From a virus (lineage: Duplodnaviria > Caudoviricetes): a DNA stretch of 64,000 nucleotides. A model generated the notes under the pieces. It had not been told where the DNA came from. It was given only the letters and a program-made list of their open reading frames with translations, and searched no databases. Both the position numbers and the translations under genes were made by a program. The DNA lies in IMG/VR virus record IMGVR_UViG_3300031555_010338. One strand, 5' to 3'. Shown here piece by piece: positions 7,859-52,426 of the stretch; position 1 is the stretch's first letter; each line of letters opens with the position of its first letter.

Positions 7859-8806
7859 GTGGATAACAGTAGTTACCGTAACCTTTATATTGCAGAGCTA
7901 ACGGAAAAGAGACAGCTTTCCGAGGCTTCCGTTCAGACAATCCAGAACTTCTGGAAGCGTGTGCAGCGCTTTGAGGAAGAGAATGGAAATACTTTGGAGG
8001 ACGGATACACGAAGGAAGAGTTTGTGAAACTCATTTCCAGCTTTAATATAAGCAATGTGTCTGGCTTCTTGGGTGATAAGAGTAGACTAAGGAAATACCT
8101 TGAGTGGCTTGTTGAGACGAAAGGTTTCGATCCGAACATTGTTTCTGTTCTTACTTCCGTAGGATATGACGATATTGATGCAAGTCGGTTGTTTGAGTTG
8201 AAGTTCTTCAAAGACTTTCAGGACTTGCAGGACACGATTGCGACTACCTTGGTAGTCGCAGACAAGGTTGACGAGCGCATCTTTGCAACTCAGATTACAG
8301 CCATTTATATGGCCTGGTGTGGATTGCAGATGGAGGAAGCCTTGCAGATCAGAAAAGCCGATGTCAAAGACGATCATATCTGTGTCGGAGATCGTGTGAT
8401 TTATCCAAATGCGACAATTATGCAGTTCATCAAAGACTACCGTGATGCAACTGAGTATCAGTCTGCAGCAAGAGCAATCATCACACTAAAATATACTCCG
8501 TCCGAGATGCTATTCCGCACTGCGAGATCCGGATATGTTGACTCCCCTAAGACTATGCGCATCTTCATCCGAAACTTCGGAAAGAGCGGCGGCGAGGACA
8601 GCAACATGTTCCATTACGACAAGGTTTATTGGTCTGGCGTGTATAACAGAGCATATCTTTATGAGTGTGCGAATGGCCTAATTCGTCAGGGCGATATGGA
8701 AACCATCAGCAAACTTTTTAACGAAAACTACACCTCTATTTCCGTAGCAAATAAGCGTCTCCAGGCATATCGGAAGTTCGTGCAGTATTTCTTCCCTTCC
8801 AAATGA
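7859..8806 (+). CDS. Tyrosine-recombinase-fold protein, probable MrpR (SPbeta YopR)-like lytic repressor
   Basis: Integrase-like core-binding N-terminus (...SRLRKYLEWL), degenerate box I (WCGLQMEEALQIRKADV), no HxxR, YDKVYWSG; GGAGG RBS before GTG 7859. Confidence 0.55.
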   Translation: MDNSSYRNLYIAELTEKRQLSEASVQTIQNFWKRVQRFEEENGNTLEDGYTKEEFVKLISSFNISNVSGFLGDKSRLRKYLEWLVETKGFDPNIVSVLTSVGYDDIDASRLFELKFFKDFQDLQDTIATTLVVADKVDERIFATQITAIYMAWCGLQMEEALQIRKADVKDDHICVGDRVIYPNATIMQFIKDYRDATEYQSAARAIITLKYTPSEMLFRTARSGYVDSPKTMRIFIRNFGKSGGEDSNMFHYDKVYWSGVYNRAYLYECANGLIRQGDMETISKLFNENYTSISVANKRLQAYRKFVQYFFPSK

Positions 8807-8961
8807 AAAGCTTAAAAAGGCGAAAGCCTTTTAAGCCTCAAAAGGAATTAGCTAAACAACACTATATGTCCGAACAGTTACCGGTGGAACGCCATATGGA
8901 GAGCGGGTTCGACTCCCGAACGGATAACGATGCTAATTCAATAAGTTGGGAGGTGGTGCTA

Positions 8962-9258
8962 TTGAGTGGGTGTCATTACTGCCGCAGGCAGAGAACATTT
9001 TGGGCATCTGAGCCATCTGGAAAGCCAGATGCTTCGCAGGATCTTCAAAACGCGCATATTCTTGCCGGCACGAACATCTTTTCGGATACGGCTGGTCGTC
9101 AGATACGCTTCATGTATTGCCCCATGTGTGGTGAGCCGTTGCTGAAGCCACCCGACGATGGGGGGGGTAAAGTTGGTATTCTTGCCGCCCTATTTCCCCC
9201 GAAATTTTGCAATAGCATAACAAAATTACAAGGAGCGTGTAAATCATGGGCAAAGTGA
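8962..9258 (+). CDS. Cys-rich hypothetical protein with a G8 tract near the 3' end
   Basis: GGAGGTG RBS before TTG 8962; CHYC...YCPMCG. Confidence 0.55.
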   Translation: MSGCHYCRRQRTFWASEPSGKPDASQDLQNAHILAGTNIFSDTAGRQIRFMYCPMCGEPLLKPPDDGGGKVGILAALFPPKFCNSITKLQGACKSWAK

Positions 9259-25906: not shown

Positions 25907-27313
25907 GTGAAGACATTGTATTCTGCATTTGTTACCAGAATTAAAAACCTGAGAAAACATACGAATGCAGATCGTCTGATGTGTGGCGAGTGTTTTGGCA
26001 ATACGGTTATCGTTGGCCTGGACACTCAGCCAGACGAGCTTGGTGTTTACTTCCCCGTAGACGGCAAGCTTGGTTTGGAGTTTGCGCAGAAGAATGATCT
26101 GCTCCGCCGCAAGGATGAAAATGGCAAACCTGCTGGCGGTTATCTCGATCCTGAGAAGAGAAACATTAAGGCTCTGAAGCTCCGTGGAGAAAAGAGCGAC
26201 GGCCTGTTTATGCCTCTTGTTTGTCTGGCAGATTACACCGATATTGCCAGTTTGAAAGAGGGTGACACCATTACAGTGTTGAATGGTGTAACGATTTGTG
26301 AGAAATATATCCCCCGCGCAAGTAGTAGGGGGGGGTGTCATTTTGATGGTAATCGCACTCGCAAGCGCAAAGATCCTGTGTCTCCCCTGTTCATGGAACA
26401 TGCAGACACGGAACAGCTTGCCTACAATCTTACATCCTTCCGTGCTGGCGACCAAATCGAGGTCACTTTGAAGATGCACGGCACTTCTCAGAGAACCGGC
26501 TATCTTCCCGTTCTGAGTGGATATAAGCGCACCATTATGGATAAGCTGCGCAAGCGTTCTGGCACACCGATTTATGATTGGGGCTATGTCTCCGGTACTC
26601 GTCGTGTAGTTCTGGACGATTATGAAGGCGGCTACTATGGGAGCAACGCCTTCCGTGAGCAGCACAGCAAGATCTTTGAAGGCAAACTTCATAAGGGCGA
26701 GACGGTATATTATGAGGTTGTTGGTTTTACTCAGGACGGTACGCCTATCATGGCTTCTTGTGATAACAAGAAAGTAGGCGATAAGGAATTTACTAAACAA
26801 TACGGAGATGTTACGACATTCTCTTATGGCTGCAAGCCTGGACATTTGGGCGGACTTATCAAAGATAAGGAAATTGTGGATAACGAAGCTGTTGTGTATC
26901 CGCAGTCTGACATCTATGTGTACCGTATGACCATGACCAATGAGGACGGCGATGTAGTTGAGTACACGCCCGATTTTATGCGTTACCGTTGTGAGCAGAT
27001 GGGCGTTAAGTGTGTTCCCGTATTTTACAAGGGCTACATTCCCGAATACTTCATCCTGCCCGATGATGTTGGAAGTCCCGCCGCAATCGATGCTGGTGCA
27101 TATGTAAAGAAGCTGGCTGAGGATTTCTACGACGGCGCTGATCCTGTTGGTAAATCCCATATCCGTGAGGGTGTTGTAGTTCGGATCATCAACCGTCCTA
27201 AGTTCACCGCTTACAAGCATAAGAACTTTGCGTTTAAGGTGCTGGAGGGCATTATCAAGGATGTTGCTACCGCACCTGACATGGAAGAGGCTCAGGAACA
27301 GGAGGCTGCATAA
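25907..27313 (+). CDS. RNA ligase (DRB0094/Rnl2-like, N-terminal OB-fold)
   Basis: HTNADRL, LRGEKSDG, motif I KMHGTS, motif IV REGVV, motif V KHK. Confidence 0.8.
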   Translation: MKTLYSAFVTRIKNLRKHTNADRLMCGECFGNTVIVGLDTQPDELGVYFPVDGKLGLEFAQKNDLLRRKDENGKPAGGYLDPEKRNIKALKLRGEKSDGLFMPLVCLADYTDIASLKEGDTITVLNGVTICEKYIPRASSRGGCHFDGNRTRKRKDPVSPLFMEHADTEQLAYNLTSFRAGDQIEVTLKMHGTSQRTGYLPVLSGYKRTIMDKLRKRSGTPIYDWGYVSGTRRVVLDDYEGGYYGSNAFREQHSKIFEGKLHKGETVYYEVVGFTQDGTPIMASCDNKKVGDKEFTKQYGDVTTFSYGCKPGHLGGLIKDKEIVDNEAVVYPQSDIYVYRMTMTNEDGDVVEYTPDFMRYRCEQMGVKCVPVFYKGYIPEYFILPDDVGSPAAIDAGAYVKKLAEDFYDGADPVGKSHIREGVVVRIINRPKFTAYKHKNFAFKVLEGIIKDVATAPDMEEAQEQEAA

Positions 27314-27477
27314 TGGGACTTCCGCAAATCATTTTTGTTGGGCTTTATGCTCTGTCGCTTGGTTGCATTCTGGCTAAGCACGGCGAAGCAAGAACGGGGA
27401 AGTATAATTTCTTCACTTCTCTGTTTACTGTCTCCTTAGAGATGATGCTGCTTTGGTGGGGCGGCTTCTTTGGATAA
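27313..27477 (+). CDS. Small membrane protein (54 aa)
   Basis: Own translation MGLPQIIFVGLY...LLWWGGFFG*. Confidence 0.55.
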   Translation: MGLPQIIFVGLYALSLGCILAKHGEARTGKYNFFTSLFTVSLEMMLLWWGGFFG

Positions 27478-27784
27478 ACAAACCATCATCGACTTCATCC
27501 GCCACTTCAAAGATGCGCAAAAGACATTTCTTGACGGGTGCTGCTACTGGTTCTGCTATATTTTGAGCGCCAGATTTGGAGGCTCAACATTTTATGAGCC
27601 AGTTGAAGGACACTTTGTACAAAAAATTGGCGATTCGTTCTTTGATGTGCGCGGTGATGTCACTGAACTGTATAAGGACTGTCGGTATATGGTGTGTTGG
27701 GATACATACAAGCTTGTAGACCCAACACATTACCGGCATGTTGTAAGAGACTGTGTATTGAAAGAGAGGTATGAAGATGATTGA
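27470..27784 (+). CDS. Hypothetical protein
   Basis: GCCYWF...HFV...FFDVRG (Cys-His-Asp pattern). Confidence 0.6.
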   Translation: MDKQTIIDFIRHFKDAQKTFLDGCCYWFCYILSARFGGSTFYEPVEGHFVQKIGDSFFDVRGDVTELYKDCRYMVCWDTYKLVDPTHYRHVVRDCVLKERYEDD

Positions 27785-28589
27785 TGCACTTGAGCGTGAC
27801 CAGAAAATCATGCGTCGGCTTGCTGAACATCTTGATTCGGTGAAGGATAAACATCCAGAATGGGTCGGTATCTTTCTCCAAGGCTCTCAGAATTACAACC
27901 TGGACTATGAGGGGAGCGACATTGATTCAAAGCTGATTGTCCTCCCCTCTTTCGAGGATTTTGTACTTAACAGAAAGCCTTATAGCTACACGCACATCAT
28001 GGAAAACGATGAGCATGTGGATGTAAAGGATATTCGCTTGATGTTTGAGTGCTTCCGTAAGCAAAATATCAACTTTGTTGAGATCCTTTTTACAAAGTAT
28101 CGCATTATGAACCCTAAATACGAGGTGTTGTTCAAGCCCGTTTTGGATGCTCGTGAACTCGTTGGACGATACAACAACTATGCCGCTATGAACTGTATGG
28201 TTGGTGCGGCGATGGAGAAGCGCAAGGCTTTGTGCCATCCTTATCCCGCCACTATGGAGAAGATCGAAAAGTTTGGCTACGATCCGAAGCAACTTCATCA
28301 TATCCTGCGCTTTGATGAATTTAATGAGCGTTGGCTTGCCGGTGTTCTGTATGAACACTGCTTGATTTCTGAGCAGCGTGACTATTTTCGATCTGTAAAG
28401 TTTGGTTGTCACACTTTAGAAGAAGCAATCGAAATTGCAGACGAAACGATTGAGCGTATGAAACGACGTAAAGACGAGTACATGGCTGCTACCCCCCCCA
28501 TTATCAATCGTGATGTGGAGCAAATCTTGAACTCAGCTCTTATCGAGCTGTTCAAATACAATTTTCAGTGTGAGATTGGAGGTGTGTAA
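27771..28589 (+). CDS. Nucleotidyltransferase (Pol-beta superfamily)
   Basis: GSQNYNLDYEGSDIDSK. Confidence 0.8.
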   Translation: MKMIDALERDQKIMRRLAEHLDSVKDKHPEWVGIFLQGSQNYNLDYEGSDIDSKLIVLPSFEDFVLNRKPYSYTHIMENDEHVDVKDIRLMFECFRKQNINFVEILFTKYRIMNPKYEVLFKPVLDARELVGRYNNYAAMNCMVGAAMEKRKALCHPYPATMEKIEKFGYDPKQLHHILRFDEFNERWLAGVLYEHCLISEQRDYFRSVKFGCHTLEEAIEIADETIERMKRRKDEYMAATPPIINRDVEQILNSALIELFKYNFQCEIGGV

Positions 28590-28590
28590 C

Positions 28591-29520
28591 ATGGAAAATA
28601 AGCAACCTATCTTTTTCATGCTTGTTGGTCTTCCGTACAGTGGAAAATCTGTCCAGGCCGAAAAGCTGAAAGAACAGTATGGAGCTGTTATCCATTCCAG
28701 TGATGCCATCAGAGCGGAAGTCCTTGGCGATGTTCAGGATCAGAATAATAATGGAAAAGTGTTTGAAGTTCTTCACCGCCGCGTCTTTGATGATCTGTCT
28801 GCCGGCAAGAATGTCGTGTACGATGCTACCAACATCAGTTATAAGCGCCGCATGGATGCTTTGCAGCGTATCAACAAAATCGATTGTCAGAAGGTCTGCC
28901 TTTTCATGGCAACTCCCTTTGATGTCTGTATTGAGCGCAGCAAGAACCGTGAGCGCGTTGTTCCTTATGAGGTTGTCGAGCGCATGTATAAAACGATCTG
29001 GATTCCCAATGTGTATGAGGGTTGGGATCATGTTGAGTTGATTTATCCCGAAGGTTTTAAGCCTTACAATCTTCGTGACCTGTTCAACGGAGAGAATGGT
29101 TTGAACTACATCAATCAGGACAATCCTCATCACGCTCTGACTGTCGGACATCATTGCATTACTGCATATGGCCTTGTCCACAACGAGTCTCCTGAATTGC
29201 AGGAAGCAGCTCTTCTGCATGATATCGGTAAGCCTTTTACGAAGTCTTTCGTAAATAGCAAGGGTGAAACTACTGAGGTTGCCCATTATTACGACCATCA
29301 TCATGTTTCCGCATATGACAGTTTGTTTTATGGTGATTTCAGTCTGGATCGTCTTTACATCGCCGCTATCATCCAGTGGCATATGAGGCCGTTTGAACTT
29401 GAGCGTCTTGGTGACTCCAGACGTGCAAAAGAAAAGTTCAGAGATCTTGTTGGATATAAGCTGTACCGCGACATTGAGCGTCTGCATGTGGCAGATATCG
29501 AAGCGAAAGGCTTGAAGTAA
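28591..29520 (+). CDS. Polynucleotide kinase (AAA_33) + HD phosphohydrolase
   Basis: GLPYSGKS, SSDAIR, DATN; HHALTVGHH, LHDIGK. Confidence 0.85.
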   Translation: MENKQPIFFMLVGLPYSGKSVQAEKLKEQYGAVIHSSDAIRAEVLGDVQDQNNNGKVFEVLHRRVFDDLSAGKNVVYDATNISYKRRMDALQRINKIDCQKVCLFMATPFDVCIERSKNRERVVPYEVVERMYKTIWIPNVYEGWDHVELIYPEGFKPYNLRDLFNGENGLNYINQDNPHHALTVGHHCITAYGLVHNESPELQEAALLHDIGKPFTKSFVNSKGETTEVAHYYDHHHVSAYDSLFYGDFSLDRLYIAAIIQWHMRPFELERLGDSRRAKEKFRDLVGYKLYRDIERLHVADIEAKGLK

Positions 29521-29579: not shown

Positions 29580-30487
29580 ATGCAGTCTTGGGATTTGCAG
29601 CGCAAGATCCAAGTTACCACGACACGCATTATCGAATGGTATGAGCATTACAACGGCAATGTCTATGTAGCGTTCTCTGGTGGCAAAGATTCTACTGTTT
29701 TGCTGGATATTGTACGGCGTATTTATCCCGATGTGCCGGCTGTTTTCTGCGATACTGGTTTGGAGTTTCCCGAAATCAGAGAGTTTGTTAAAAAGCAAGC
29801 TAATGTTGTCATTCTTCGGCCTGAGATGAATTTCCGAAAGGTCATTGAGGTGTATGGCTACCCCGTCGTTTCCAAGCGCGTCGCTGACACGGTAGAGTAC
29901 GGCCATAAGCCTGGTTCTTTCCGTTGGAAGGAGCTGCACGGAGAAATCATGCGTAGCAATGGCACTCCTTCTGAGTTCAACTGCGAGAAGTGGTGCTATC
30001 TGCTGGATGCGCCTTTCAAGGTATCTTCCCGTTGCTGCAACATCATGAAGAAGCGGCCAATGAAAAAGTATGCTAAGCAGACTGGCCGAGTTCCCATTAT
30101 TGCTACTATGACAGACGAAAGCCGTTCCCGCCGATCCGTATGGATGAAGCAGGGTTGTAATGCCTTTAATAAGAAAGATCCATCTTCTCAGCCTATGTCT
30201 TTCTGGACTGAAAACGATGTCCTTGAATATCTCTACACCTACAATATCCCCTATGCACCGGTTTATGGTGAAATCATGCGTTGCGGGGGGGGTGGACGAC
30301 GACAGGTGAAAAGCGCACCGGATGCGTATTTTGTGCATTTGGCGCTCATCTGGAGAAGTCCCCTAACCGCTTCCAGCGTCTGAAGGTTTCTCATCCTAAG
30401 CTGTGGGATTATTGTATGAGATCGTGGGATGAACATGGCTTAGGCATGAGAGAAGTTTTGGAGTACATCGGTATCCAATGTGAATAG
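29580..30487 (+). pseudogene. PAPS-reductase-family protein, frameshifted at G8 (30285-30292)
   Basis: FSGGKDS, DTGLEFPE, CC..MKK; the conserved C-terminal RTGCVFC lies in another frame; G9 restores the frame. Confidence 0.85.
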
Positions 30488-30490
30488 GAG

Positions 30491-31105
30491 TTGAAGAAAA
30501 TAGAAGACCGTAAGTATCTGAGCGGTACGAGTCTGGCTGGCAAGTCTCCTACGAGATCTCGTGCTGAGAACGATTTCTACGCAACTCCGTTTGAAACGAC
30601 TGCAGCAATTCTTGATCGTGTCCCGCTCGTTGGATCTATCTTGGAACCAGCAGCAGGCCAAGGTCATATCAGCAAGCTTCTGATGGAGCGTTATCCTAAT
30701 AGCGAGATTGTTTCTACGGATTTAGTAGAGCGTGAAGATAAGTTCGCCTGCGGTGTCCAGGGAGGGGTAGATTTCCTTACCTATGACTTCGGGCGGAAGT
30801 TTGACAATGTGATTACTAACCCGCCGTTCTCTCTGGCAAAAGAGTTTATCGAAAAAGCTCTTGAAGTATCAAATGATAAGGTAATCATGTTTGCAAAAAT
30901 TCAGCTTCTCGAAGGTGAGAAGCGTCGTCCTCTGTTTGACACACATCCGCCAAAGTATGTGTATGTGTTTACCAAGCGCCAAAGCCCTTTGAACAATGGC
31001 AGTGCTGTTGATGAAAATGGAAAGCCTTGGGCAACTACAATGTGTTTTGCTTGGTTTGTGTGGGAACATGGTTTTGTCGGTGAGCCGACAATTCGTTGGA
31101 TTTAA
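30491..31105 (+). CDS. Amino (N6-adenine-type) DNA methyltransferase
   Basis: DFYATP, LEPAAGQG, TNPPF, FAWFVW. Confidence 0.8.
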   Translation: MKKIEDRKYLSGTSLAGKSPTRSRAENDFYATPFETTAAILDRVPLVGSILEPAAGQGHISKLLMERYPNSEIVSTDLVEREDKFACGVQGGVDFLTYDFGRKFDNVITNPPFSLAKEFIEKALEVSNDKVIMFAKIQLLEGEKRRPLFDTHPPKYVYVFTKRQSPLNNGSAVDENGKPWATTMCFAWFVWEHGFVGEPTIRWI

Positions 31106-31136
31106 GAAATTAGCTAAACAACACAAGGAGAGTAAT

Positions 31137-31824
31137 ATGTTTGAGGTAAACAAGATTTTTGTAGGGGATTGTATTTCAGGTATGCAATCGTGGGGGGGGG
31201 CAAGCCGACCTTGTGCTTACAGACCCTCCTTATAACATCAGCGTTGATAACAATTTCCATACGATGCGTGGTCGCCACGGAATTGATTTTGGAGATTGGG
31301 ATAAAGGGTTCGACTTGACGGGTTGGATACCAGAGGCGGTATCCAGGCTTAAACCAGGCGGAAATATTATCATTTTTAATGCTTGGCGAAATATGGGTGA
31401 AATTGCTACTGCTCTGGAAGGGTGTGGATGCCTTGTAAAAGAGATGATCCAGTGGCAAAAGACCAATCCAATGCCAAGAAACAGAGATCGCCTATATGTA
31501 ACTGCTTGTGAATTTGCAATTTGGGCGACTAAAGGCAAAGGATGGACGTTCAACCGACAAAGAGAAACCTACGAAAACACAATTTTCAAATATCCAATCG
31601 TGTCTGCAAAACGGCGCATTCATACGACGCAAAAACCGATTGAACTTATTCGTGATTTAATTCTCATCCATAGTAACCCGAACGATATAGTTCTCGATCC
31701 GTTTATGGGCAGTGGTACAACTGCTATTGCCGCCATTGAAACGGGACGAAAGTTTGTTGGGTTCGAGATTGACGAAAATTATTACTCTGCTGCGTGTCAG
31801 CGAATTACAGAAAGAATTGCTTAA
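31137..31824 (+). pseudogene. Beta-class N4/N6 DNA methyltransferase, frameshifted at G9 (31192-31200)
   Basis: MFEVNKIFVGDC in one frame; DLVLTDPPY...HTTQKP...DPFMGSGT in the next; G8 restores the frame. Confidence 0.85.
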
Positions 31825-31841
31825 CGGCGAGTGTGATTTAC

Positions 31842-32582
31842 ATGAAGCATATTGCAAGTGTCAGCTTTGGCAAGGATAGCCTTGCTATGCTGTTATGTCT
31901 TATCGAAAAGAAATACCCGCTCGATATTGTCCTCTTCTATAACACTGGTATGGAGTTTGAGGCAATTTACCGAATCCGAGACAAGATTGTTCCTGTGCTT
32001 GAAGAACTTGGAATCGATTATGTTGAGCTTCATCCATCAGAACCCTTTCTATACACGATGCTTGAGCGTCCTGTTAATAGCATGAGGGGGGGGCAGAAGT
32101 ACGGATACGGCTGGTGCGGTGGTCTTTGCCGTTGGGGAACGTCAGAAAAACTCAGAGCAATAAAGAAGTTTAAGCGCTCACTGAATGATGTGGTCATTGA
32201 TTATGTCGGCATCGCTTCTGACGAACAATCCCGTTTTGAAAAGGCAAAAAGCGACGGCAAAAGATTACCACTGGTTGAGTGGGATATGACAGAAAAGGAT
32301 TGTTTGGAGTATTGCCATGCAAAAGGTTGGTATTGGTACGAAACAACAGAATCCGGAACTGTTGAACTGTATTCAATTTTAGATCGTGTTTCTTGTTGGT
32401 GTTGTTGTAACAAGAACCTAAAAGAACTGAAAAACATCTATCTACATCTCCCAGAATATTGGGAGAAGTTAAAAGCGCTTCAATCTCAAATGAGTAGGCC
32501 AATCAAAGGTTTTTACAAAAATCATCCAAAGGGAATTTTTGAGCTTGAAGATAGATTTTCTAAGGAGATAAACAAATCATGA
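31842..32582 (+). CDS. PAPS-reductase-family protein (in-frame G8 at 32086-32093)
   Basis: SFGKDS, TGMEF, WCGGLCRWG, RVSCWCC. Confidence 0.8.
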   Translation: MKHIASVSFGKDSLAMLLCLIEKKYPLDIVLFYNTGMEFEAIYRIRDKIVPVLEELGIDYVELHPSEPFLYTMLERPVNSMRGGQKYGYGWCGGLCRWGTSEKLRAIKKFKRSLNDVVIDYVGIASDEQSRFEKAKSDGKRLPLVEWDMTEKDCLEYCHAKGWYWYETTESGTVELYSILDRVSCWCCCNKNLKELKNIYLHLPEYWEKLKALQSQMSRPIKGFYKNHPKGIFELEDRFSKEINKS

Positions 32583-33466
32583 AATACAATACTGCCCTTT
32601 TCTGCGAGTTCGACAAGTACGCCGCAGAAAGCTATTGCGCAGTTCATGGTGTGGATCATTCTCTGAACATTGGCGATATCACCCAGGCCGACGAAAAAGC
32701 TGTGCCTGACTTCAATGTAATGTTCGGGGGTAGTCCGTGCCAGGACTTCTCAATCGCCGGCAAACAGGGGGGGGTAGCGTGGAAATGTAAATCCTGCGAC
32801 CATACATATAACCCTCTGGAAGCCCACTATACCGTTCGCTACCAGTGTCCGAAGTGCGGATCAACCGACATTGATAAGACCCGCTCTTCCCTTCTTGTAG
32901 AGTGGCTGCGCTTTCTCCGTGAGAAGAAGCCTCGCTTTGCAATCTATGAAAATGTCAAAAACATTGTCGGTACTCGTTTCAAAGAAACCTTTGATTTGTT
33001 TGTAAAGGAACTTGAAGAGTACGGCTACAATGTGTACTGGCAGGTTTTGAATGCAAAGAATTATGGCATTCCTCAGAACAGAGAGCGTGTCTACTGCGTT
33101 ATCATTCGTAAAGATTTGGATAACGGTCAATTCAAATTCCCAGAACCAATTCCTCTGAAATCATCTTTGAGTGATCTGCTGGAGGACGAAGTAGATGAGC
33201 ATTACTATCTCAGCGACGAGAAAGTAGCTCAGATGATCGCCCCCCCCCACTCCGTAATATCAGCAACACCGTCCGATCAAGCGGACGCGGATCAACTGAC
33301 AGACACACATGGGACTTGCTGCCATGCGAAGAGAGGCGCAAAGCTGAGTAACAAAGGGAGCCATTTTGATGGCTACAGCGATGTCGCCTTAACCTTATTG
33401 GCACGAGACTATAAAGGTTTTGGAAATCAGCAAATGACAGGAGTTATTGAGTCGAATGAACGATAA
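32579..33466 (+). CDS. C5-cytosine methyltransferase subunit alpha (motifs II-VIII + TRD)
   Basis: CEFDKYA, GDI, GGSPCQDFS, YENV, PQNRERV; lacks motif I; CxxC...CxxC insert. Confidence 0.9.
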   Translation: MKYNTALFCEFDKYAAESYCAVHGVDHSLNIGDITQADEKAVPDFNVMFGGSPCQDFSIAGKQGGVAWKCKSCDHTYNPLEAHYTVRYQCPKCGSTDIDKTRSSLLVEWLRFLREKKPRFAIYENVKNIVGTRFKETFDLFVKELEEYGYNVYWQVLNAKNYGIPQNRERVYCVIIRKDLDNGQFKFPEPIPLKSSLSDLLEDEVDEHYYLSDEKVAQMIAPPHSVISATPSDQADADQLTDTHGTCCHAKRGAKLSNKGSHFDGYSDVALTLLARDYKGFGNQQMTGVIESNER

Positions 33467-34334
33467 ATTAAACCCTGACAGTCTGTTTACCCCCCCCGTA
33501 TCATATTGCATAGACGCAAATTACTATAAGGGGACAACAATAGAACAGTACGTCAAAAAGAAGCGGAGGCAACTTGTAGTGGATACTTTTGATAAACATA
33601 AAACAAAGAACGATATTACGATGCTTGGCGGGTTGCAAGCTCATCAACATCCGTGCAGTGATGGGATTTGCCCCTGTGTGAATAGTGCGGCTGGAATGGG
33701 TGGTGGACAAACACCTATTGCAATTCGACCTGGATTTCGTGTGAGAAAACTTACACCAAAAGAGTGTTGGAGACTTATGGGATTTGAAGACCAAGATTTT
33801 GAGAATGCCAAGAACGGCATGAATCAGAATATCTACAATGGAAATGATCGTTCCAGCTCTCAGCTCTATAAGCAGGCTGGCAACAGTATTGTTGTCGATG
33901 TGCTGCTTCACATCATGGAAAACCTGTACGAAGCTATGCCGTATTTGTTTGAAGACATCCAAATCGGCTCTTTCTTCAGCGGTATTGGCGCATTTGAAAA
34001 GGCTCTTGATCGACTTGAGCCTAACAATACTCACTCAGCCGAATTAGCGACGGACAACCCTGAGTTGCATCAACTTGGTTATATCAACGGAAATAATGGT
34101 GTAGCCAATCGCGTATATGATAACAACCTGGCTCGTACCTTAGCTGCCGAGGCGGGGGGGGGCGGAGCTAAGACCGGCTGGTATCGAATTACCCCCCCCC
34201 GCAATCCAGTGATTCTGGATGTAAAGCAGCAACATCGGGAGGGGAAGCCGAGAATGTACCAGACAGGTATTGTCCCGACCCTTGCAGCACGGGATTACAA
34301 AGACCCGTTGCGAGTTGTTGTGAAGAAAGGGTAA
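33456..34334 (+). CDS. C5-cytosine methyltransferase subunit beta (TRDs, motifs IX-X-I, TRDs)
   Basis: RKLTPKECWRLMGF, YKQAGNSIVV, then FFSGIGAFE. Confidence 0.85.
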   Translation: MNDKLNPDSLFTPPVSYCIDANYYKGTTIEQYVKKKRRQLVVDTFDKHKTKNDITMLGGLQAHQHPCSDGICPCVNSAAGMGGGQTPIAIRPGFRVRKLTPKECWRLMGFEDQDFENAKNGMNQNIYNGNDRSSSQLYKQAGNSIVVDVLLHIMENLYEAMPYLFEDIQIGSFFSGIGAFEKALDRLEPNNTHSAELATDNPELHQLGYINGNNGVANRVYDNNLARTLAAEAGGGGAKTGWYRITPPRNPVILDVKQQHREGKPRMYQTGIVPTLAARDYKDPLRVVVKKG

Positions 34335-34570
34335 TTTTAGATGATACTATGGGCTTTGAACAAACGCCTCGCATTTACAAAGAGTTTTGTCCAAGTTTGA
34401 GAGCGAGTAGAAATGGTTTGAAAACTGTTACTGCTTCCAATCTTGGGATTATTGATCCGCAAGGCCGCACAAAGAAAAAGCTCTATATCAAAAAGATCTG
34501 TCCAACGCTCCGCGCACAAATCCACGGAAATCCGCCATGTGCGGTGTATGAGGTAAAACAAAATGAGTGA
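34202..34570 (+). other. Alternative TRD cassette, reachable by +1 C at 34192-34200 (or translated from ATG 34349)
   Basis: Frame open from the C tract to 34570; encodes CPSLRASRNGLK and CPTLRAQIHGNPP. Confidence 0.65.
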
Positions 34571-34797
34571 GACGATCAGAATCAAACAGGCCACAAAGCA
34601 AGGCTTCATTGAGTGTGTCGTGGGGGGGGGCTGTCGATCTCTCCTACCCAAACTCTAAAACCCGTCGTGGCCGTGTGCAAGAAGGCGGAATGATTTGCCC
34701 GACGATTACAGCCCAGACAACGGGAATTTGTATCGTAGAAAAAGCAAGGAATTCCACCAAACCTATTGACAAATCCGAAAAACCTGATATACTATAA
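34563..34797 (+). pseudogene. Stand-alone TRD gene, frameshifted at G9 (34622-34630)
   Basis: MSETIRIKQATKQGFIEC joins AVDLSYPNSKTRRGRV...CPTITA when the tract is G8. Confidence 0.75.
34766..34793 (+). promoter_or_regulatory. Sigma-A promoter for the replication module
   Basis: TTGACA-16-TATACT with extended -10 TG. Confidence 0.65.
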
Positions 34798-43200: not shown

Positions 43201-43651
43201 GATTTATGATTTGGTCGCGCAGTACGCCACCGATAGGAACAAAGACGGCTCAGAGGCAAAGTCTTTTAGCATTACGGATATGGACGGCCTGCTTGCTGCT
43301 TGCGAAGGAGCGATCAAATCCCTTAATCTGCCCGATATCGATCTGAAGTGCAAAATCCAATCTCAGCTTGAACTCATGGGCTATATCGACCTTACCACAA
43401 AGCGTCCTGAGGACAGAAGAAAGCTTCTCGTCAGCGATGTTTATCCAATGGTTAGTCGTGAAAAGGGAACTGTTTGGGGCTATGCCCTACAAACCAGATC
43501 AATCGGTAGCGGTAAAACTGCTCGTCTTACCGTCCGTGCTTATACATTCACCAAAAATCCAATCAAGCGATTCGATATCATACAGGCAAAAGAGTTAGAG
43601 AAAAACAAGAGTGGATATTGGTATTTGCTCGATTACGAACTAATTGCCTAA
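40283..43651 (+). CDS. dnaE: DNA polymerase III alpha subunit
   Basis: PHP HLHS, TEHG, GTDTH; RGSCGGS, FSRF, DIDID, HPAG, KYDILGL, YQE; GGAGG RBS before GTG 40283. Confidence 0.95.
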   Translation: MDENYVVYHLHSDLSLLDSATKFEDYVNRAVELGQKAIAFTEHGNIYQWVAKKMCCDKAGIKYLHGVECYLTEKFIWTDPRTGEESRLRDNYHTILIAKNQAGLQELNDLVSASTRDDHFYYKPRISFNEFLGISKNVIKISACLASPLNKMKVNHPLYERLLKHYDYLEIQPHNHPEQISYNCHLAEMSKKYGIPLIAGTDTHSLNSYKAECRSVMQLAKHIEFADEDSFDLSYKSYEELVEMFRLQNALPESIFLDAIENTNRMADSVEAFELDVSFKYPKLYGARDKEVFEQTIKDNLLAKIKEGAITQDQISNFASAIQEECRVFDKIEMSGFMLFMSELVTWCKSNGIPIGFNRGSCGGSRVAYVTNTTDLNPETWHTVFSRFCNEDRKEIGDIDIDVSPSDRDKVYEYIINRFGQENTAFILAIGTIKSKGCIDEICRALGVRWNKEHQHDLGDLKSLLKALKDMDVEVTFGDSRDGFGTYYWDRKTNKLIFPEKMGGTPRAELIKAYSREYERLKAENEKIFEKNPWVGKINNTIKQDFEANPEEARKKYPDVFYYYDGLLDVAISQSMHPAGIVASPLTLRDNYGTFMSEGKEILQIDMECVHEAGLVKYDILGLKNIEIIKDTYALIGKPYPKSHEIDWNDDAVWKDMLRSPIGIFQFESAFAFDSLKKFKTHSIYDMSLVTACIRPSGASYRDELLQRKPHKNPSPIIDELLKDNLGYLIYQEDTIKFLQEICGLSGSEADNVRRAIGRKQKDRLDKALPSILEGYCSKSSQPRDVAEQEAKEFIQIIEDSASYQFGYNHSIGYCMIGYLCAYLRYYHPYEFITAYLNNANNEEDIKNGSALAELYGIQIVPPRYGLSKDKYIFDAEKGVIAKGIESIKYMNSAVANELYEISKKHQPQTFMELLKLMTEESSLDTRQREILIKIDFFQDFGNIPELTRIVTFYSFFKNGTAKKIPKAKLEGQIYDLVAQYATDRNKDGSEAKSFSITDMDGLLAACEGAIKSLNLPDIDLKCKIQSQLELMGYIDLTTKRPEDRRKLLVSDVYPMVSREKGTVWGYALQTRSIGSGKTARLTVRAYTFTKNPIKRFDIIQAKELEKNKSGYWYLLDYELIA

Positions 43652-43673
43652 AACAAGAAAGGACGTAACGAAC

Positions 43674-44306
43674 ATGAGTCGTAAACGCAATTCTGCCGGC
43701 AAGATTGTCACTGTCATATGTGGCGCATGTCTGGCAACACTTCTGATGGGTTCCATGTGCTACCCCGCCGCGAGATCGTGTGATATGGACACCCCCCCCG
43801 AAAATACAGCTACTACTTCTTATTTGGTACATACTTCTGAGCCGGTCATGTTGGTACTGCCAGAGGTTGTGGAACCAATCGAAACAACTAAGGTTGAACC
43901 AGTTGTTCCAGAGGAAGATCCTCCCGCAATTCCCTATACAGAAGAAGACCTTGATTTGTTTGCAAGACTTCTTACCGCTGAGATGGGTGGCTCTTGGATT
44001 CCCGATGAGATTCAGCTTTATGTTGGTAGTGTTGTCATTAACCGTATGGGACATGAACTGTATCCCGATACGCTGTACGATGTTATTTATCAACCTGGTC
44101 AGTATTCTCCTACTTGGAGCGGCGCAATCAACAACACGCCAGATGAACGTACCATTGAAAATGCACGGCAGCTTCTTGAGGAAGGGAGTATCCTCCCCGC
44201 AAATGTGGTATTCCAGGCTAACTTTAAGCAGGGCGACGGCGTTTACTATGAATACTACGACGAAATTCTTGGAACAACAACTTATTTTTGCTATCTATCG
44301 AATTAA
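43674..44306 (+). CDS. SleB/CwlJ-like cell wall hydrolase
   Basis: N-terminal TM; LFARLLTAE, VGSVVINR, YPDTLYDVIYQPGQY. Confidence 0.85.
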   Translation: MSRKRNSAGKIVTVICGACLATLLMGSMCYPAARSCDMDTPPENTATTSYLVHTSEPVMLVLPEVVEPIETTKVEPVVPEEDPPAIPYTEEDLDLFARLLTAEMGGSWIPDEIQLYVGSVVINRMGHELYPDTLYDVIYQPGQYSPTWSGAINNTPDERTIENARQLLEEGSILPANVVFQANFKQGDGVYYEYYDEILGTTTYFCYLSN

Positions 44307-44330
44307 CTAAACAATTTCGGAGGTTATGCA

Positions 44331-48915: not shown

Positions 48916-49478
48916 ATCGAATTGGCGAATTTTCAAAGGTAAGCTATGAGCAGTTCTATGAAGCAATGAAGGACTGTTTCTACGAGGATAATCCACCTGA
49001 GAATGAAATTCGGGAGCTATATGACAATATCAAGCTCCCAGAACGAGCAACCGCTGGCTCTGCTGGCTACGATTTCAAGTCCCCCATCCACTTTGTCATT
49101 GCTCCTGGTGTGAGTATTAAGATTCCAACCGGCATTCGTGTACGGATTGAAAACGGCTGGTGGCTTGGCTGTCTGCCTCGTAGCGGCCTGGGCTTCAAGT
49201 ACAGACTGCAGCTTAATAATACGATGGGTGTAATCGACAGCGATTACTACAATTCCGACAACGAAGGCCATATCTTCGCAAAGATCACCAACGATTCCAA
49301 CGAGAATAAGGTTCTCGAAGTCAAGGCCGGCGATGGTTTTATGCAGGGTATCTTCCTTCCCTATGGAATTACATACGATGATGCAGCCGCAGGTGTTCGC
49401 AACGGCGGTTTTGGCTCCACAAGTGTACCTAAGGTAATCGAATTCGGTCAGGCAAATACTGAGATGCGGGTTGCTTGA
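48912..49478 (+). CDS. dut: dUTPase (trimeric)
   Basis: SAGYD, RSGLG, GVIDSDY, RNGGFGST. Confidence 0.95.
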   Translation: MNRIGEFSKVSYEQFYEAMKDCFYEDNPPENEIRELYDNIKLPERATAGSAGYDFKSPIHFVIAPGVSIKIPTGIRVRIENGWWLGCLPRSGLGFKYRLQLNNTMGVIDSDYYNSDNEGHIFAKITNDSNENKVLEVKAGDGFMQGIFLPYGITYDDAAAGVRNGGFGSTSVPKVIEFGQANTEMRVA

Positions 49479-50251
49479 TGGAATTAGACAAGGTTTACAA
49501 TATCGACTGTCTCATTGGTATGCGGGAGATTGCAGATGAGTCCGTAGATTTGATTCTCTGCGATCTCCCCTACGGGGTAACAAAGAACAAGTGGGACGCA
49601 GTAATTCCACCTGAGAAACTTTGGGAACAGTACGAACGAATTATCAAGCCTAACGGAGCAATCATTCTCTTTGGACAGGATAAGTTTACCGCCAAAATGA
49701 TGCTTTCCAACGAAAAGCTCCATCGGTACAACATCATCTGGGATAAGGTTTTGAAAAGCGGTTTCTTAAATGCAAACCGAATGCCAATGCGAGAGCATGA
49801 GGACATTATGGTTTTCTATAAGAAACAGCCGGTTTATAACCCTCAGATGGTAAAGGGTGTTCCAAGCCATAGCAAAGGAAAAGCAAAAGGTGAGAACGCC
49901 GAAGATGTTCTGAATAACCGTATTTACGGATCATATAAAGTCGTTGAAAACCGAAGTGATATGAAGCATCCGTCTTCTATTTGGGTGTTTCAGAAGCCCC
50001 ATCCTTCTGTGGCAATTAGCTCCACGGAAAAACCAGTTGATTTGTGTAGATATATCATTCGTACATACACCAATCAGGGCGATGTAGTTCTGGATAACTG
50101 CTGCGGTAGTGGTTCTATTCTGGTAGCTGCAAAGCTGGAAGGAAGACACTACATCGGTATGGACAACGGCTCTTGCGATAATAAAAAGAGTAAATATTTT
50201 GGTATGCCCTGGGCGGAGGTCGCTACTAAAAGATTGGAGGAAGCCGCATGA
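49478..50251 (+). CDS. Beta-class N4/N6 DNA methyltransferase
   Basis: DLILCDLPY, TEKPV, LDNCCGSGS. Confidence 0.85.
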   Translation: MELDKVYNIDCLIGMREIADESVDLILCDLPYGVTKNKWDAVIPPEKLWEQYERIIKPNGAIILFGQDKFTAKMMLSNEKLHRYNIIWDKVLKSGFLNANRMPMREHEDIMVFYKKQPVYNPQMVKGVPSHSKGKAKGENAEDVLNNRIYGSYKVVENRSDMKHPSSIWVFQKPHPSVAISSTEKPVDLCRYIIRTYTNQGDVVLDNCCGSGSILVAAKLEGRHYIGMDNGSCDNKKSKYFGMPWAEVATKRLEEAA

Positions 50252-51981: not shown

Positions 51982-52426
51982 ATGAACCTTAATGTCATGT
52001 TTTCATCGAAGTCTATGGAGTGGGCAACTCCGCAAGATTTCTTTGACCGACTGAATGATGAGTTTCACTTCACCCTCGACCCCTGCGCTGACGACCATAA
52101 CCATAAGTGTGACACATATTACACTGAGAAGGAAAATGGACTTGAGCAGTGCTGGGGGGGGGCAGACCGTATTCTGCAATCCACCATACGGAAAAGCAAT
52201 AAAAGATTGGGTGAAGAAATGCTCAGACGAATCCAAAAAGCCTGGTACAACCGTTGTCATGTTAATACCGGCTCGAACGGATACAAGCTACTTCCACGAC
52301 TATATCTATCAAAAGCAAGATGTTGAGGTTAGGTTTATTCGTGGCAGATTGAAGTTTGGAGACGGAAAGAACTCTGCTCCGTTCCCAAGTATGGTGGTCA
52401 TTTTTCATTCACCAAAGGAGTTTTAA
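51982..52426 (+). pseudogene. Phage N6-adenine methyltransferase (Dam-like), frameshifted at G9 (52154-52162)
   Basis: EWATPQ...FTLDPCA in one frame; VFCNPPY...LIPARTDT...GRLKF in the next; G8 restores the frame. Confidence 0.85.

What the first reader, a model, noticed from the sequence alone, without database searches (positions are those of the whole stretch)
29580..34797. Phase-variable DNA-modification island: G/C homopolymers in nearly every gene
I count 14 G/C runs of 8-9 nt in the window. Nine lie within 30285-34630 (starting at 30285, 31192, 32086, 32767, 33240, 33490, 34154, 34192 and 34622), and a tenth is in the distant Dam-like gene (52154). A simple random-base model at roughly 45% GC predicts about one or fewer in 64 kb. 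Four genes are frameshifted exactly at a tract, and a 1-nt change restores their conserved motifs (PAPS-reductase-like needs +1; the beta-MTase, TRD gene and Dam-like gene need -1). Inference: these are contingency loci that randomise the phage epigenome against host restriction. Caveat: individual ON/OFF states could be homopolymer sequencing errors, but the clustering of tracts cannot.
Basis: partly seen in the sequence, partly recalled or inferred. Interest (0 to 1): 0.8.

Follow-up and report, generated by a model that had tools for sequence, protein, structure and literature searches.

The report
Slippery G/C runs switch phage methylases
A large prophage of gut Clostridia (Oscillospiraceae) has slippage-prone runs of 8-9 G or C in almost all its DNA-modification genes; the run lengths differ between otherwise near-identical phages, so the phage probably switches its DNA marks on and off at random to hedge against host restriction systems.

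Summary

**In the window**
- There are exactly 14 G/C runs of 8-9 nt and none of 6-7 nt; base shuffles give about 0.6.
- Nine runs lie in 30285-34630, and a tenth lies in the distant Dam-like gene.
- All four claimed frameshifts are real. The first PAPS-reductase-like gene needs +1. The beta-class methylase, the small recognition-module ORF and the Dam-like gene each need -1.

**In relatives**
- The runs sit at the same codons in about 45 related phages, including prophages in cultured isolates and one complete chromosome.
- Their lengths range from 7 to 11.
- In near-identical pairs, every indel falls in a run.
- Flanking synonymous sites vary while the runs persist. Run-free homologues encode other residues at those positions.

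**The poly-C run at 33240**
- It selects among two conserved alternative C-terminal tails, encoded in overlapping frames, or a stop.

**Best reading (about 0.72)**
- These are hypermutable contingency loci that randomise the phage's DNA-modification state.
- The slippage mechanism, the switching rate and the anti-restriction purpose are inferred, not shown.

**Novelty**
- The principle is known from bacterial phasevarions, Campylobacter phage poly-G tracts and a poly-G run noted in a Bordetella phage methylase.
- I found no paper describing a multi-switch phage modification island.
- This scan has already noted the same phenomenon in at least 53 other genomes.
- I class it as a new variant of a known kind.

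The parts
29580..30487 (+). First PAPS-reductase-family (PP-loop) gene, broken at its G8 tract (30285-30292). It is OFF here and G9 restores the frame.
   Evidence: Pfam PAPS_reduct E = 6.5e-21. An intact relative, L015 (G9), aligns to window frame 0 up to 30341 and to frame 2 from 30287. In relatives this site is G8 x13, G9 x7 and G10 x2.
30491..31105 (+). Methyltransferase-like gene with an NPPF motif and no tract in this genome.
   Evidence: Weak Pfam hits to EcoRI_methylase and MTS. The homologue in L003 carries a G8 tract just before its NPPF motif.
31137..31824 (+). Beta-class N6/N4 DNA methyltransferase, broken at its G9 tract (31192-31200), 19 codons from the start. It is OFF here and G8 restores the frame.
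   Evidence: Pfam N6_N4_Mtase E = 1e-41; NCBIfam CcrM-like. Frames read. Orthologous tracts occur in L091 (G9) and L126 (G7). The closest relatives by protein search, at 78% identity, lack the tract at this site but have tracts in neighbouring genes.
31842..32582 (+). Second PAPS-reductase-family gene, with a G8 tract (32086-32093) that is in frame (ON).
   Evidence: Pfam PAPS_reduct E = 1.5e-6; frames.
32579..33466 (+). C5 cytosine methyltransferase ORF-A: motifs II-VIII with a zinc-ribbon insert and no motif I. Its G8 tract (32767-32774), just after motif IV, is in frame. Its C9 tract (33240-33248) lies at the start of the target-recognition region.
   Evidence: Aligns to M.HhaI residues 40-92 and 95-210. 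The G tract in relatives is G7 x3, G8 x37 and G9 x5; only G8 is in frame.
33250..33351 (+). Alternative tail b of ORF-A, read when the poly-C tract is C10 or C7. It contains a conserved peptide, ISNTVR.SGRGSTDRH.WDLL, followed by a stop. With C9 the ribosome reads tail a, which ends ..ALTLLARDYKGFGNQQMTGV (to 33466). With C8 or C11 translation stops at once.
   Evidence: Both frames are open and conserved in 30 unique relatives. Codon-position entropy marks frame b as the constrained frame in the first 72 nt and frame a further on. Called proteins in the frame-b state exist in public assemblies (P0121-P0124). Tract lengths are C7 x1, C8 x11, C9 x25, C10 x2 and C11 x1.
33456..34334 (+). C5 methyltransferase ORF-B: recognition modules, motifs IX and X, then motif I, then further recognition-like modules. 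It has a C8 tract (33490-33497) at codon 12, which is ON, and G9 (34154-34162) and C9 (34192-34200) tracts in the C-terminal extension.
   Evidence: Matches M.HhaI residues 270-321 for motifs IX-X. There are weak matches to residues 16 onward (motif I) and 217-267 (recognition domain). tblastn of the single-chain homologues P0080, P0060 and P0073 supports the same layout. The 34154 site in relatives is G7 x6, G8 x12, G9 x15 and G10 x1.
34349..34570 (+). Small ORF encoding two recognition-module-like motifs (CPSLRAS, CPTLRAQ), with no tract. A +1 change at the 34192 tract would fuse it to ORF-B.
   Evidence: Three-frame reading. No Pfam family.
34563..34797 (+). Small ORF encoding one complete recognition module, broken at its G9 tract (34622-34630). 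It is OFF here and G8 restores the frame.
   Evidence: The in-frame version in L086 (77 aa) matches an internal segment of 543 longer proteins (136-2000 aa searched). The 120 listed are 138-957 aa and all carry the C5 methyltransferase domain PF00145. tblastn shows frame 0 up to the tract and frame 1 after it. In relatives the site is G7 x5, G8 x20 and G9 x16.
51982..52426 (+). Dam-like (PF05869) N6-adenine methyltransferase, broken at its G9 tract (52154-52162) at the W-G-G just before FCNPPY. It is OFF here and G8 restores the frame.
   Evidence: Pfam Dam hits lie on both sides of the tract in different frames. The intact relative L243 aligns to frame 1 and then frame 2. Of 78 relatives, 53 have a run of 6 or more G here (7 x6, 8 x18, 9 x24, 10 x3).
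26328..26335 (+). G8 tract in frame inside an RNA ligase gene (25907-27313), outside the modification island.
   Evidence: PHROG RNA ligase E = 3e-63. It is G8 in all 6 relatives that carry it.
28492..28499 (+). C8 tract in frame near the 3' end of a nucleotidyltransferase gene (27771-28589).
9160..9167 (+). G8 tract in frame in an ORF of unknown function (8803-9258).
43792..43799 (+). C8 tract in frame in a SleB-like cell-wall hydrolase gene (43644-44306). A second frame also stays open for about 170 codons after it.

Best explanation
The G/C runs are hypermutable simple-sequence tracts, that is, contingency loci, kept by selection inside the DNA-modification genes of this roughly 140-kb temperate Oscillospiraceae phage. 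Polymerase slippage during replication adds or removes one G:C pair. Each change shifts the reading frame and so heritably and reversibly switches a gene on or off. Affected genes are the two PAPS-reductase-like genes, the beta-class N6/N4 methylase, the Dam-like methylase, both halves of a split C5 methylase and a separate recognition-module ORF. At 33240 the change instead selects between two alternative C-terminal tails or a stop. At 34154 and 34192 it adds or removes recognition-like modules behind the catalytic core. With ten switches, a phage or lysogen population becomes a mixture of many modification genotypes. The likely benefit is bet-hedging: a given methylation protects against classical restriction-modification systems but exposes the DNA to modification-dependent (Type IV) nucleases and may cost the lysogen. 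What is shown: the tracts, their excess and clustering, their conservation at orthologous codons, nucleotide-level selection, length polymorphism between near-identical genomes, the frame consequences, and the dual coding after 33240. What is inferred: slippage as the mutational process, the switching rate within a population, the methylation specificities, and the anti-restriction purpose.
For: Excess and bimodality: 14 runs of 8-9 nt against 0.61 expected, and none of 6-7 nt.

Clustering: 10 of 15 tracts of the 143.8-kb record lie in modification genes. In five whole relatives, 31 of 50 tracts lie in a modification island of at most 8 kb. In the complete host chromosome of L086, 6 of 22 tracts lie in 4.2 kb of 3.6 Mb (P = 2e-13).

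Conservation with variable length: the pooled G/C run histogram of the 80 viral-contig loci is 5:189, 6:31, 7:58, 8:133, 9:84, 10:12, while A/T runs decay steadily. Cultured isolates and a complete genome carry the tracts.

Mutation rate: L022 and L123 differ by 4 substitutions and 3 indels in 12.9 kb, and all 3 indels are in tracts (3 of 4 shared tracts differ). L017 and L034 differ by 24 substitutions and 5 indels, all in tracts (5 of 7 differ).

Nucleotide-level selection: CAG GGG GGG G is held in about 44 relatives while flanking third positions vary. Tract-less homologues read KQKGS or KQAGS at that point. GGG is the rarest Gly codon (6-7%), yet 7 of 76 Gly-Gly pairs are GGG-GGG against 0.41 expected.

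Reversibility: OFF alleles are frequent (for example 14 of 22 for the first PAPS-reductase-like gene and 35 of 55 for the Dam-like gene). Even so, the reading frame after the tract stays open and conserved, at 85% amino-acid identity for the first PAPS-reductase-like gene.

Recurrent gain: tracts sit in Dam, D12, N6_N4, EcoRI-like and C5 methylases and in PAPS-reductase-like genes of relatives.

Dual coding after 33240.
Against: No reads were available, so within-population heterogeneity and switching rates were not observed. Some length differences between assemblies could be consensus or homopolymer errors.

At several sites the commonest length is out of frame (Dam-like G9 x24 against G8 x18; the ORF-B site of relatives G8 x13 against G9 x2). 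This could also mean that expression relies on transcriptional or translational slippage.

Five tracts lie in genes unrelated to DNA modification: RNA ligase, nucleotidyltransferase, ClpP-like, hydrolase and one unknown. The RNA ligase tract shows no length variation in 6 relatives.

No methylation specificity, restriction target or fitness effect was tested. The function of the PAPS-reductase-like genes in phages is unknown.
Confidence: 0.72

Rival explanations
1. Programmed recoding. The tracts are sites of RNA-polymerase slippage or ribosomal frameshifting, so out-of-frame alleles still yield some full-length enzyme and one allele yields two products. On this view the tracts set expression level or product ratio rather than acting as heritable switches.
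For: Out-of-frame lengths are the commonest state at some sites, such as G9 in the Dam-like gene and G8 at the ORF-B site of relatives. Downstream frames stay intact in those alleles. Both tails after 33240 are conserved, although the frame-b state is rare in consensus genomes, at 3 of 40.
Against: A recoding signal should have a fixed length and a conserved context. Here the lengths run from 7 to 11 and differ between genomes that are otherwise more than 99.8% identical. In-frame lengths are also common (G8 x37 of 45 in the C5 core, G8 x18 in the Dam-like gene). No conserved stimulatory element was looked for or seen. Slippage on G/C runs is generally held to be less efficient than on A/T runs; that is background knowledge, not tested here. 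The two mechanisms are not mutually exclusive.
Confidence: 0.12
2. Host-side phasevarion. The switches chiefly serve the lysogen. Variable methylation of the bacterial chromosome by prophage methylases changes host gene expression or blocks superinfection, rather than protecting phage DNA.
For: The element is an integrated prophage in isolates and in a complete chromosome. The methylases are orphans, with no restriction nuclease nearby. Phase-variable methylases that control regulons are well established in bacteria (review PMC12707154).
Against: The island sits among replication and recombination genes (ERF, PD-(D/E)XK nuclease, primase-helicase, polymerase), which suggests lytic-cycle expression. 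Relatives with direct terminal repeats, which are presumably packaged genomes, carry the same tracts. Multi-enzyme, multi-module methylation fits protection against many restriction systems better than regulation. Expression in lysogens was not tested.
Confidence: 0.1
3. Artefact or decay. The tracts and frameshifts are homopolymer sequencing or assembly errors, or mutational hotspots in decaying, functionless prophage genes.
For: The four broken genes in this single record cannot be told apart from consensus errors without reads. Homopolymers are known error sites.
Against: Tract positions are conserved across dozens of independent metagenomes, cultured isolates and a complete genome. There are no runs of 6-7 nt. 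Synonymous sites inside the tracts are fixed while neighbouring ones vary. The frames on both sides of the tracts stay open and conserved. Complete relatives with terminal repeats carry the tracts.
Confidence: 0.04

Closest known systems
Hypermutable poly-G tracts of Campylobacter phages (Sorensen et al. 2021, Cell Rep 35:109214; cited in PMC12823448 and in preprint 10.1101/2025.10.21.683753)
   Same: Both are phage-borne G homopolymers of about 7-11 nt inside coding genes, where length changes shift the frame and create phenotypic subpopulations.
   Different: In Campylobacter phages the tracts lie in receptor-binding protein genes of lytic phages and change host recognition. Here they are concentrated in DNA-modification genes of a temperate Clostridia phage, with up to ten per genome, and one selects between alternative protein tails.
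Phasevarions and other SSR-switched bacterial methyltransferases: Type III mod, Type I hsdM/hsdS, and Type II/IIG enzymes of Helicobacter and Campylobacter (PMC12707154, PMC4889913)
   Same: Slipped-strand mispairing in a repeat inside a methyltransferase gene switches methylation on or off, heritably and reversibly.
   Different: Those enzymes are chromosomal, mostly part of R-M systems of host-adapted Gram-negative pathogens, with one repeat per gene, and their studied role is gene regulation. Here the methylases are orphans on a phage of gut Firmicutes, many are switched together, and PAPS-reductase-like genes are included.
Poly-G tract noted in a methylase gene of Bordetella phage BPP-1 (Liu et al. 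2004, as cited in preprint 10.1101/2025.10.21.683753), and contingency loci of T2/T4 (same preprint)
   Same: A homopolymer lies in a phage methylase gene, and that preprint puts forward the general idea of phage contingency loci as bet-hedging.
   Different: According to the preprint, the BPP-1 tract was noted but not studied further, and I could not read the original paper. The T-even loci are short A/T-type repeats scattered over many gene classes, not an island of G/C tracts in modification genes.
Multispecific C5 methyltransferases of Bacillus phages SPR, phi3T and rho11s (Trautner et al. 1996, cited in PMC12707154), and the split enzyme M.AquI (from my own knowledge)
   Same: One catalytic core is combined with several tandem target-recognition modules. 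As in M.AquI, the enzyme is split within the recognition region.
   Different: Here the family is circularly permuted, with motif I after motif X. The enzyme is split into two ORFs, extra modules follow motif I or stand as small ORFs, and homopolymer tracts lie at or in the modules.

Membership tests
Simple-sequence-repeat contingency locus (phase-variable gene) | A homopolymer or short repeat, long enough to slip (7 nt or more), lies inside the ORF or promoter and is over-represented relative to base composition. | tested here: met
   There are 14 runs of 8-9 nt against 0.61 expected, and none of 6-7 nt. All 14 lie inside ORFs.
Simple-sequence-repeat contingency locus (phase-variable gene) | Repeat length is polymorphic among closely related genomes at the same site, far above the background indel rate. 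| tested here: met
   Site spectra span 7-11 nt. In pairs with no more than 0.2% substitutions, all indels lie in tracts and 3 of 4 and 5 of 7 shared tracts differ.
Simple-sequence-repeat contingency locus (phase-variable gene) | Length changes toggle the reading frame, while both flanks stay intact so that the switch is reversible. | tested here: met
   OFF alleles keep open, conserved downstream frames.
Simple-sequence-repeat contingency locus (phase-variable gene) | Length heterogeneity within a clonal population, and a measured switching rate. | not testable with these tools
   No reads or cultures were available.
Phasevarion (phase-variable regulon) | The switched methyltransferase belongs to an R-M system (mod or hsd genes). 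| tested here: not met
   The island holds orphan Dam-like, N6_N4 and C5 methylases. No restriction nuclease domain was found in or next to it.
Phasevarion (phase-variable regulon) | Switching changes expression of a set of host genes. | not testable with these tools
   This needs transcriptomes of tract variants.
Multispecific phage C5 methyltransferase (SPR/phi3T type) | A single polypeptide with motifs I-X in canonical order and several recognition modules between motifs VIII and IX. | tested here: not met
   ORF-A holds motifs II-VIII only. ORF-B holds recognition modules, IX, X and then motif I. Single-chain relatives are permuted too.
Multispecific phage C5 methyltransferase (SPR/phi3T type) | Several independent recognition modules, each conferring its own target sequence. 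| tested here: inconclusive
   Module homology to internal segments of multi-module enzymes is shown for 34563-34797 and 34278-34328. The other modules rest on short motifs. Specificities were not tested.
Programmed frameshift or transcriptional slippage site | A slippery sequence of fixed length and conserved context, with the shifted product required. | tested here: not met
   Length is not fixed: it runs from 7 to 11, and in-frame alleles are common. Production of shifted products from one allele was not testable.

The most novel reading that the evidence does not exclude
The C5 system is a combinatorial specificity switch, not just a set of ON/OFF genes. A split, circularly permuted catalytic core (ORF-A plus ORF-B) would be combined with alternative recognition pieces. 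These pieces are chosen by homopolymer length: tail a or tail b at 33240, C-terminal modules at 34154 and 34192, and free-standing recognition-module proteins such as 34563-34797 acting like exchangeable specificity subunits. A single phage lineage would then cycle through many cytosine-methylation target sets.
Probability: 0.15. Interest if true: 0.85.

Novelty: new variant of a known kind. Interest (0 to 1): 0.62.

Why it matters
Phage methylases are usually treated as fixed anti-restriction equipment. Here a whole modification gene set is placed under stochastic, heritable switches, in a phage family that is widespread in gut Oscillospiraceae. At the Dam-like site the same switch also appears in many other gut phage contigs.

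If the switches work as inferred, a single phage lineage is an epigenetically mixed population. That would affect:
- host range;
- the balance between classical and modification-dependent restriction;
- how 'broken' methylase genes in viromes are annotated, since many are switches rather than pseudogenes;
- methylation-based phage-host linking in metagenomes.

The overlapping-frame tail selector and the permuted, split, multi-module C5 enzyme are also natural material for studying how recognition modules are combined with a methyltransferase core.

Tried and rejected
- A megablast of the island against the GenBank phage collection found nothing.
- Markov-chain simulations for the expected number of runs timed out. 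I used shuffles and the run-length table instead.
- Sequencing artefact was rejected because the tract positions are conserved in independent assemblies and isolates.
- I checked whether ORF-A and ORF-B could be fused by any tract length. They cannot: the ORF-A stop (33464-33466) and the ORF-B start (33456) overlap upstream of the 33490 tract, and relatives keep the same boundary. The split is therefore real.
- I looked for the tail-b peptide inside single-chain methylases. The only hits were ORF-A-like proteins in the frame-b state, plus a weak 12-residue resemblance. Calling tail b a recognition module therefore rests on motif resemblance only.
- The closest relatives of the beta-class methylase by protein search (78% identity) lack the tract at that site, so that tract is younger or less widespread than the others.
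- The original BPP-1 paper could not be read.
- Four literature searches for phase-variable methylase islands in phages of gut Clostridia found no description. The library is incomplete, so this is weak evidence of absence.
- I considered whether the tracts serve as recombination junctions for shuffling recognition modules. I did not pursue it: several tracts lie inside modules or catalytic regions, and the idea does not explain tracts in the Dam-like, N6_N4 and PAPS-reductase-like genes.

Full report
**Observation**

The run-length distribution has a gap. G runs number 45 of length 4, 2 of length 5, none of length 6 or 7, then 5 of length 8 and 4 of length 9. C runs behave the same way. One hundred shuffles give 0.61 such runs on average, so P is about 6e-15. 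Nine of the 14 runs lie in 30285-34630 (P = 4e-8).

The window is bases 79789-143788 of a 143,788-bp IMG/VR record classed as a provirus. The rest of the record adds only one further run, in a ClpP-like gene. Ten of 15 runs therefore lie in DNA-modification genes that make up about 4% of the genome (P = 2e-11).

**Genes of the island**

- A PAPS-reductase-family gene, 29580-30487.
- A methyltransferase-like gene, 30491-31105, with no tract.
- A beta-class N6/N4 methylase, 31137-31824.
- A second PAPS-reductase-family gene, 31842-32582.
- A C5 cytosine methylase in two ORFs, 32579-33466 and 33456-34334.
- Two small ORFs, 34349-34570 and 34563-34797.
- A Dam-like methylase at 51982-52426, which carries the tenth tract.

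Comparison with intact relatives confirms all four claimed frameshifts:
- the first PAPS-reductase-like gene needs +1 at 30285;
- the Dam-like gene needs -1 at 52154;
- the small ORF needs -1 at 34622;
- the beta-class methylase needs -1 at 31192.

The remaining tracts in the island are in frame in this record.

**What the phage is**

It encodes a PolIII-alpha-like polymerase, NrdD, a primase-helicase, ERF, an RNA ligase, a polynucleotide kinase, PhoH and a ClpP-like protease. Relatives are 117-141 kb, and two of them have direct terminal repeats. Related prophages sit in Oscillospiraceae isolates and in the complete chromosome of Clostridiales bacterium CCNA10. The named isolates are Dysosmobacter segnis BX15, Hominicoprocola fusiformis and Oscillospiraceae bacterium 50-58.

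**Relatives carry the tracts at the same places, with different lengths**

A search with ORF-A found 316 related loci in viral contigs and 68 in genomes. About 45 of the closest loci have tracts at orthologous positions. The pooled G/C run histogram of the 80 viral-contig loci is 5:189, 6:31, 7:58, 8:133, 9:84, 10:12, whereas A/T runs fall off steadily.

I clustered tracts by their flanks. The length spectra per site are:

| Window site | Length spectrum in relatives |
|---|---|
| 32767 | G7 x3, G8 x37, G9 x5 |
| 33240 | C7 x1, C8 x11, C9 x25, C10 x2, C11 x1 |
| 34154 | G7 x6, G8 x12, G9 x15, G10 x1 |
| 34622 | G7 x5, G8 x20, G9 x16 |
| 30285 | G8 x13, G9 x7, G10 x2 |

The Dam-like site has a G run of 6 or more in 53 of 78 relatives drawn from many kinds of contig, with lengths 7 x6, 8 x18, 9 x24 and 10 x3. 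Lachnospiraceae homologues at about 65% identity have no tracts.

**The tracts mutate far faster than the rest of the sequence**

- L022 (a metagenome contig) and L123 (an isolate) differ by 4 substitutions in 12,873 bp and by 3 indels. All 3 indels are in tracts, and 3 of the 4 shared tracts differ.
- L017 and L034 differ by 24 substitutions and 5 indels. All 5 are in tracts, and 5 of 7 shared tracts differ.
- L085 and L089, two named isolates, differ by 139 substitutions and 3 indels, all in tracts.

**The tracts are selected as DNA, not as protein**

At the 32767 site the codons CAG GGG GGG G are held in about 44 relatives while the third positions of neighbouring codons vary freely. One relative has the run interrupted (GGA). 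Tract-less homologues encode KQKGS, KQAGS or NRKGA at that position. GGG is the rarest glycine codon of this phage (6-7%), yet 7 of 76 Gly-Gly pairs are GGG-GGG where 0.41 is expected.

**Clustering is a trait of the phage family, not of the host**

In five whole relatives, 31 of 50 tracts of 8 nt or more lie in a modification island of at most 8 kb. In the 3.6-Mb chromosome of the L086 host there are 22 tracts, and 6 lie within 4.2 kb of the prophage island (P = 2e-13).

In relatives the tract-bearing genes include Dam, D12, N6_N4 and EcoRI-like methylases and PAPS-reductase-like genes. In the D12-type gene of L014, and in a gene of L039 that shows D12/Dam-like motifs by eye but has no Pfam match, the tract lies in the glycine-rich motif I. 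The closest beta-methylase relatives lack the tract at that site but have tracts in neighbouring genes. Tracts have therefore been gained repeatedly.

**ON and OFF states**

| Site | In frame | Basis |
|---|---|---|
| C5 core (32767) | about 80% of relatives | |
| First PAPS-reductase-like gene | 8 of 22 | |
| NPPY methylase upstream of ORF-A in relatives | 6 of 19 | |
| Small recognition-module ORF (34622) | 18 of 41 | |
| Dam-like gene | 20 of 55 | |

These fractions are close to the one-in-three expected if length drifts freely. Even so, the frames downstream of the tracts stay open and conserved in OFF alleles, at 85% amino-acid identity for the post-tract segment of the first PAPS-reductase-like gene. 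That fits short-lived, reversible OFF states and does not fit pseudogene decay.

**A three-way selector at 33240**

In 30 unique relatives, two frames are open after the poly-C run. Frame b encodes a conserved peptide, ISNTVR.SGRGSTDRH.WDLL, and stops after 31-40 codons. Frame a runs through a poorly conserved stretch and then encodes the conserved ..ALTLLARDYKGFGNQQMTGV.

Codon-position entropy shows that frame b is the constrained frame in the first 72 nt (third position 1.16, against 0.78 and 0.50). Frame a is the constrained frame further downstream (1.20, against 0.37 and 0.20).

In this genome C9 reads tail a, C10 or C7 reads tail b, and C8 or C11 stops at once. Called proteins in the frame-b state exist in public assemblies. 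An earlier first-stage note of this scan suggested this reading, and I tested it here.

**Architecture of the C5 enzyme**

ORF-A aligns to M.HhaI motifs II-VIII, with a zinc-ribbon insert after motif IV, and has no motif I. ORF-B carries motifs IX and X, then motif I, then an HhaI-like recognition segment.

Single-chain homologues in Lachnospiraceae (for example P0080, 576 aa) have the order II-VIII, then four to six recognition modules, then IX, X and I. The family is therefore circularly permuted, and in this lineage it is also split.

The 77-aa small ORF, taken in-frame from L086, matches an internal module of 543 longer proteins. The 120 listed all carry the C5 methyltransferase domain. 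In the window that module is read in frame 0 before the G9 run and in frame 1 after it.

Tracts 34154 and 34192 lie after the catalytic motifs, so they would change the C-terminal modules rather than abolish the enzyme. Why recognition modules lie behind motif I and in free-standing ORFs is unexplained.

**Mechanism and rivals**

The best reading is slipped-strand hypermutation that gives heritable, reversible switching of the phage's modification genes. This acts as bet-hedging between protection from R-M systems and exposure to modification-dependent nucleases or costs to the lysogen. My confidence is about 0.72 for the switch itself and lower for the purpose.

The rivals are:
- Recoding by transcriptional or translational slippage (0.12). 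It is favoured by out-of-frame modal lengths at some sites but contradicted by the variable lengths.
- A host-side phasevarion role (0.10).
- Artefact or decay (0.04).

**Comparison with what is known**

Phage poly-G switching is known for receptor-binding proteins of Campylobacter phages. A 2025 preprint on T2 and T4 proposes phage contingency loci and mentions a poly-G run in a BPP-1 methylase gene. SSR-switched methylases are classic in bacteria.

I found no paper describing a multi-switch modification island in phages of gut Clostridia. Notes from this scan report the same phenomenon in at least 53 other genomes, including a 133-kb mouse-gut Clostridia phage and a split poly-G C5 methylase. 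Those notes agree with this report but are not independent evidence.

**Verdict**

I class it as a new variant of a known kind.

Noticed in passing
window 32579-34334; proteins P0080, P0060, P0073: The C5 methyltransferase family is circularly permuted. Single-chain Lachnospiraceae homologues run motifs II-VIII, several tandem recognition modules, IX, X and then motif I at the C-terminus. In this lineage the enzyme is additionally split into two translationally coupled ORFs.
   Followed up: partly
protein P0074 (929 aa): One homologue has a Hint/intein-type insert of about 340 residues inside the catalytic PCQ motif of the permuted C5 methylase.
   Followed up: no
window 43747-44310: After the C8 tract in the SleB-like hydrolase gene, two overlapping frames both stay open for about 170 codons. 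Only one of them has a family match. This may be chance or a second product.
   Followed up: no
window 52154; loci L231-L310: The G tract at the W-G-G just before FCNPPY of the Dam-like (PF05869) methylase is present in 53 of 78 relatives from many unrelated-looking phage contigs of 5-140 kb. This single switch is therefore far more widespread than this phage family.
   Followed up: partly
L006:1784, L021:2068, L026:2420: A small protein family of unknown function (..NGWNAA..ATIVYW[DE]DG.KTVVKC) carries a C8-C9 tract near its 5' end in relatives. An untracted copy follows the island in L086 (8333-8800).
   Followed up: no
window 25907-29520: An RNA-repair-type cluster (RNA ligase, nucleotidyltransferase, kinase-HD fusion) lies just upstream of the island and holds two in-frame tracts. 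The RNA ligase tract is G8 in all six relatives that have it, so it shows no length variation.
   Followed up: partly
window 5883, 14428, 58551, 60484, and the whole record: A and T runs show a small bump at exactly 8 nt in the whole record (A: 7 x3, 8 x9; T: 7 x0, 8 x4). In the window they mostly lie at gene ends or between genes.
   Followed up: no
window 49475-50251: A further N6_N4-type methyltransferase-like gene, 35% identical to the island enzyme over 72 residues, has no tract.
   Followed up: no
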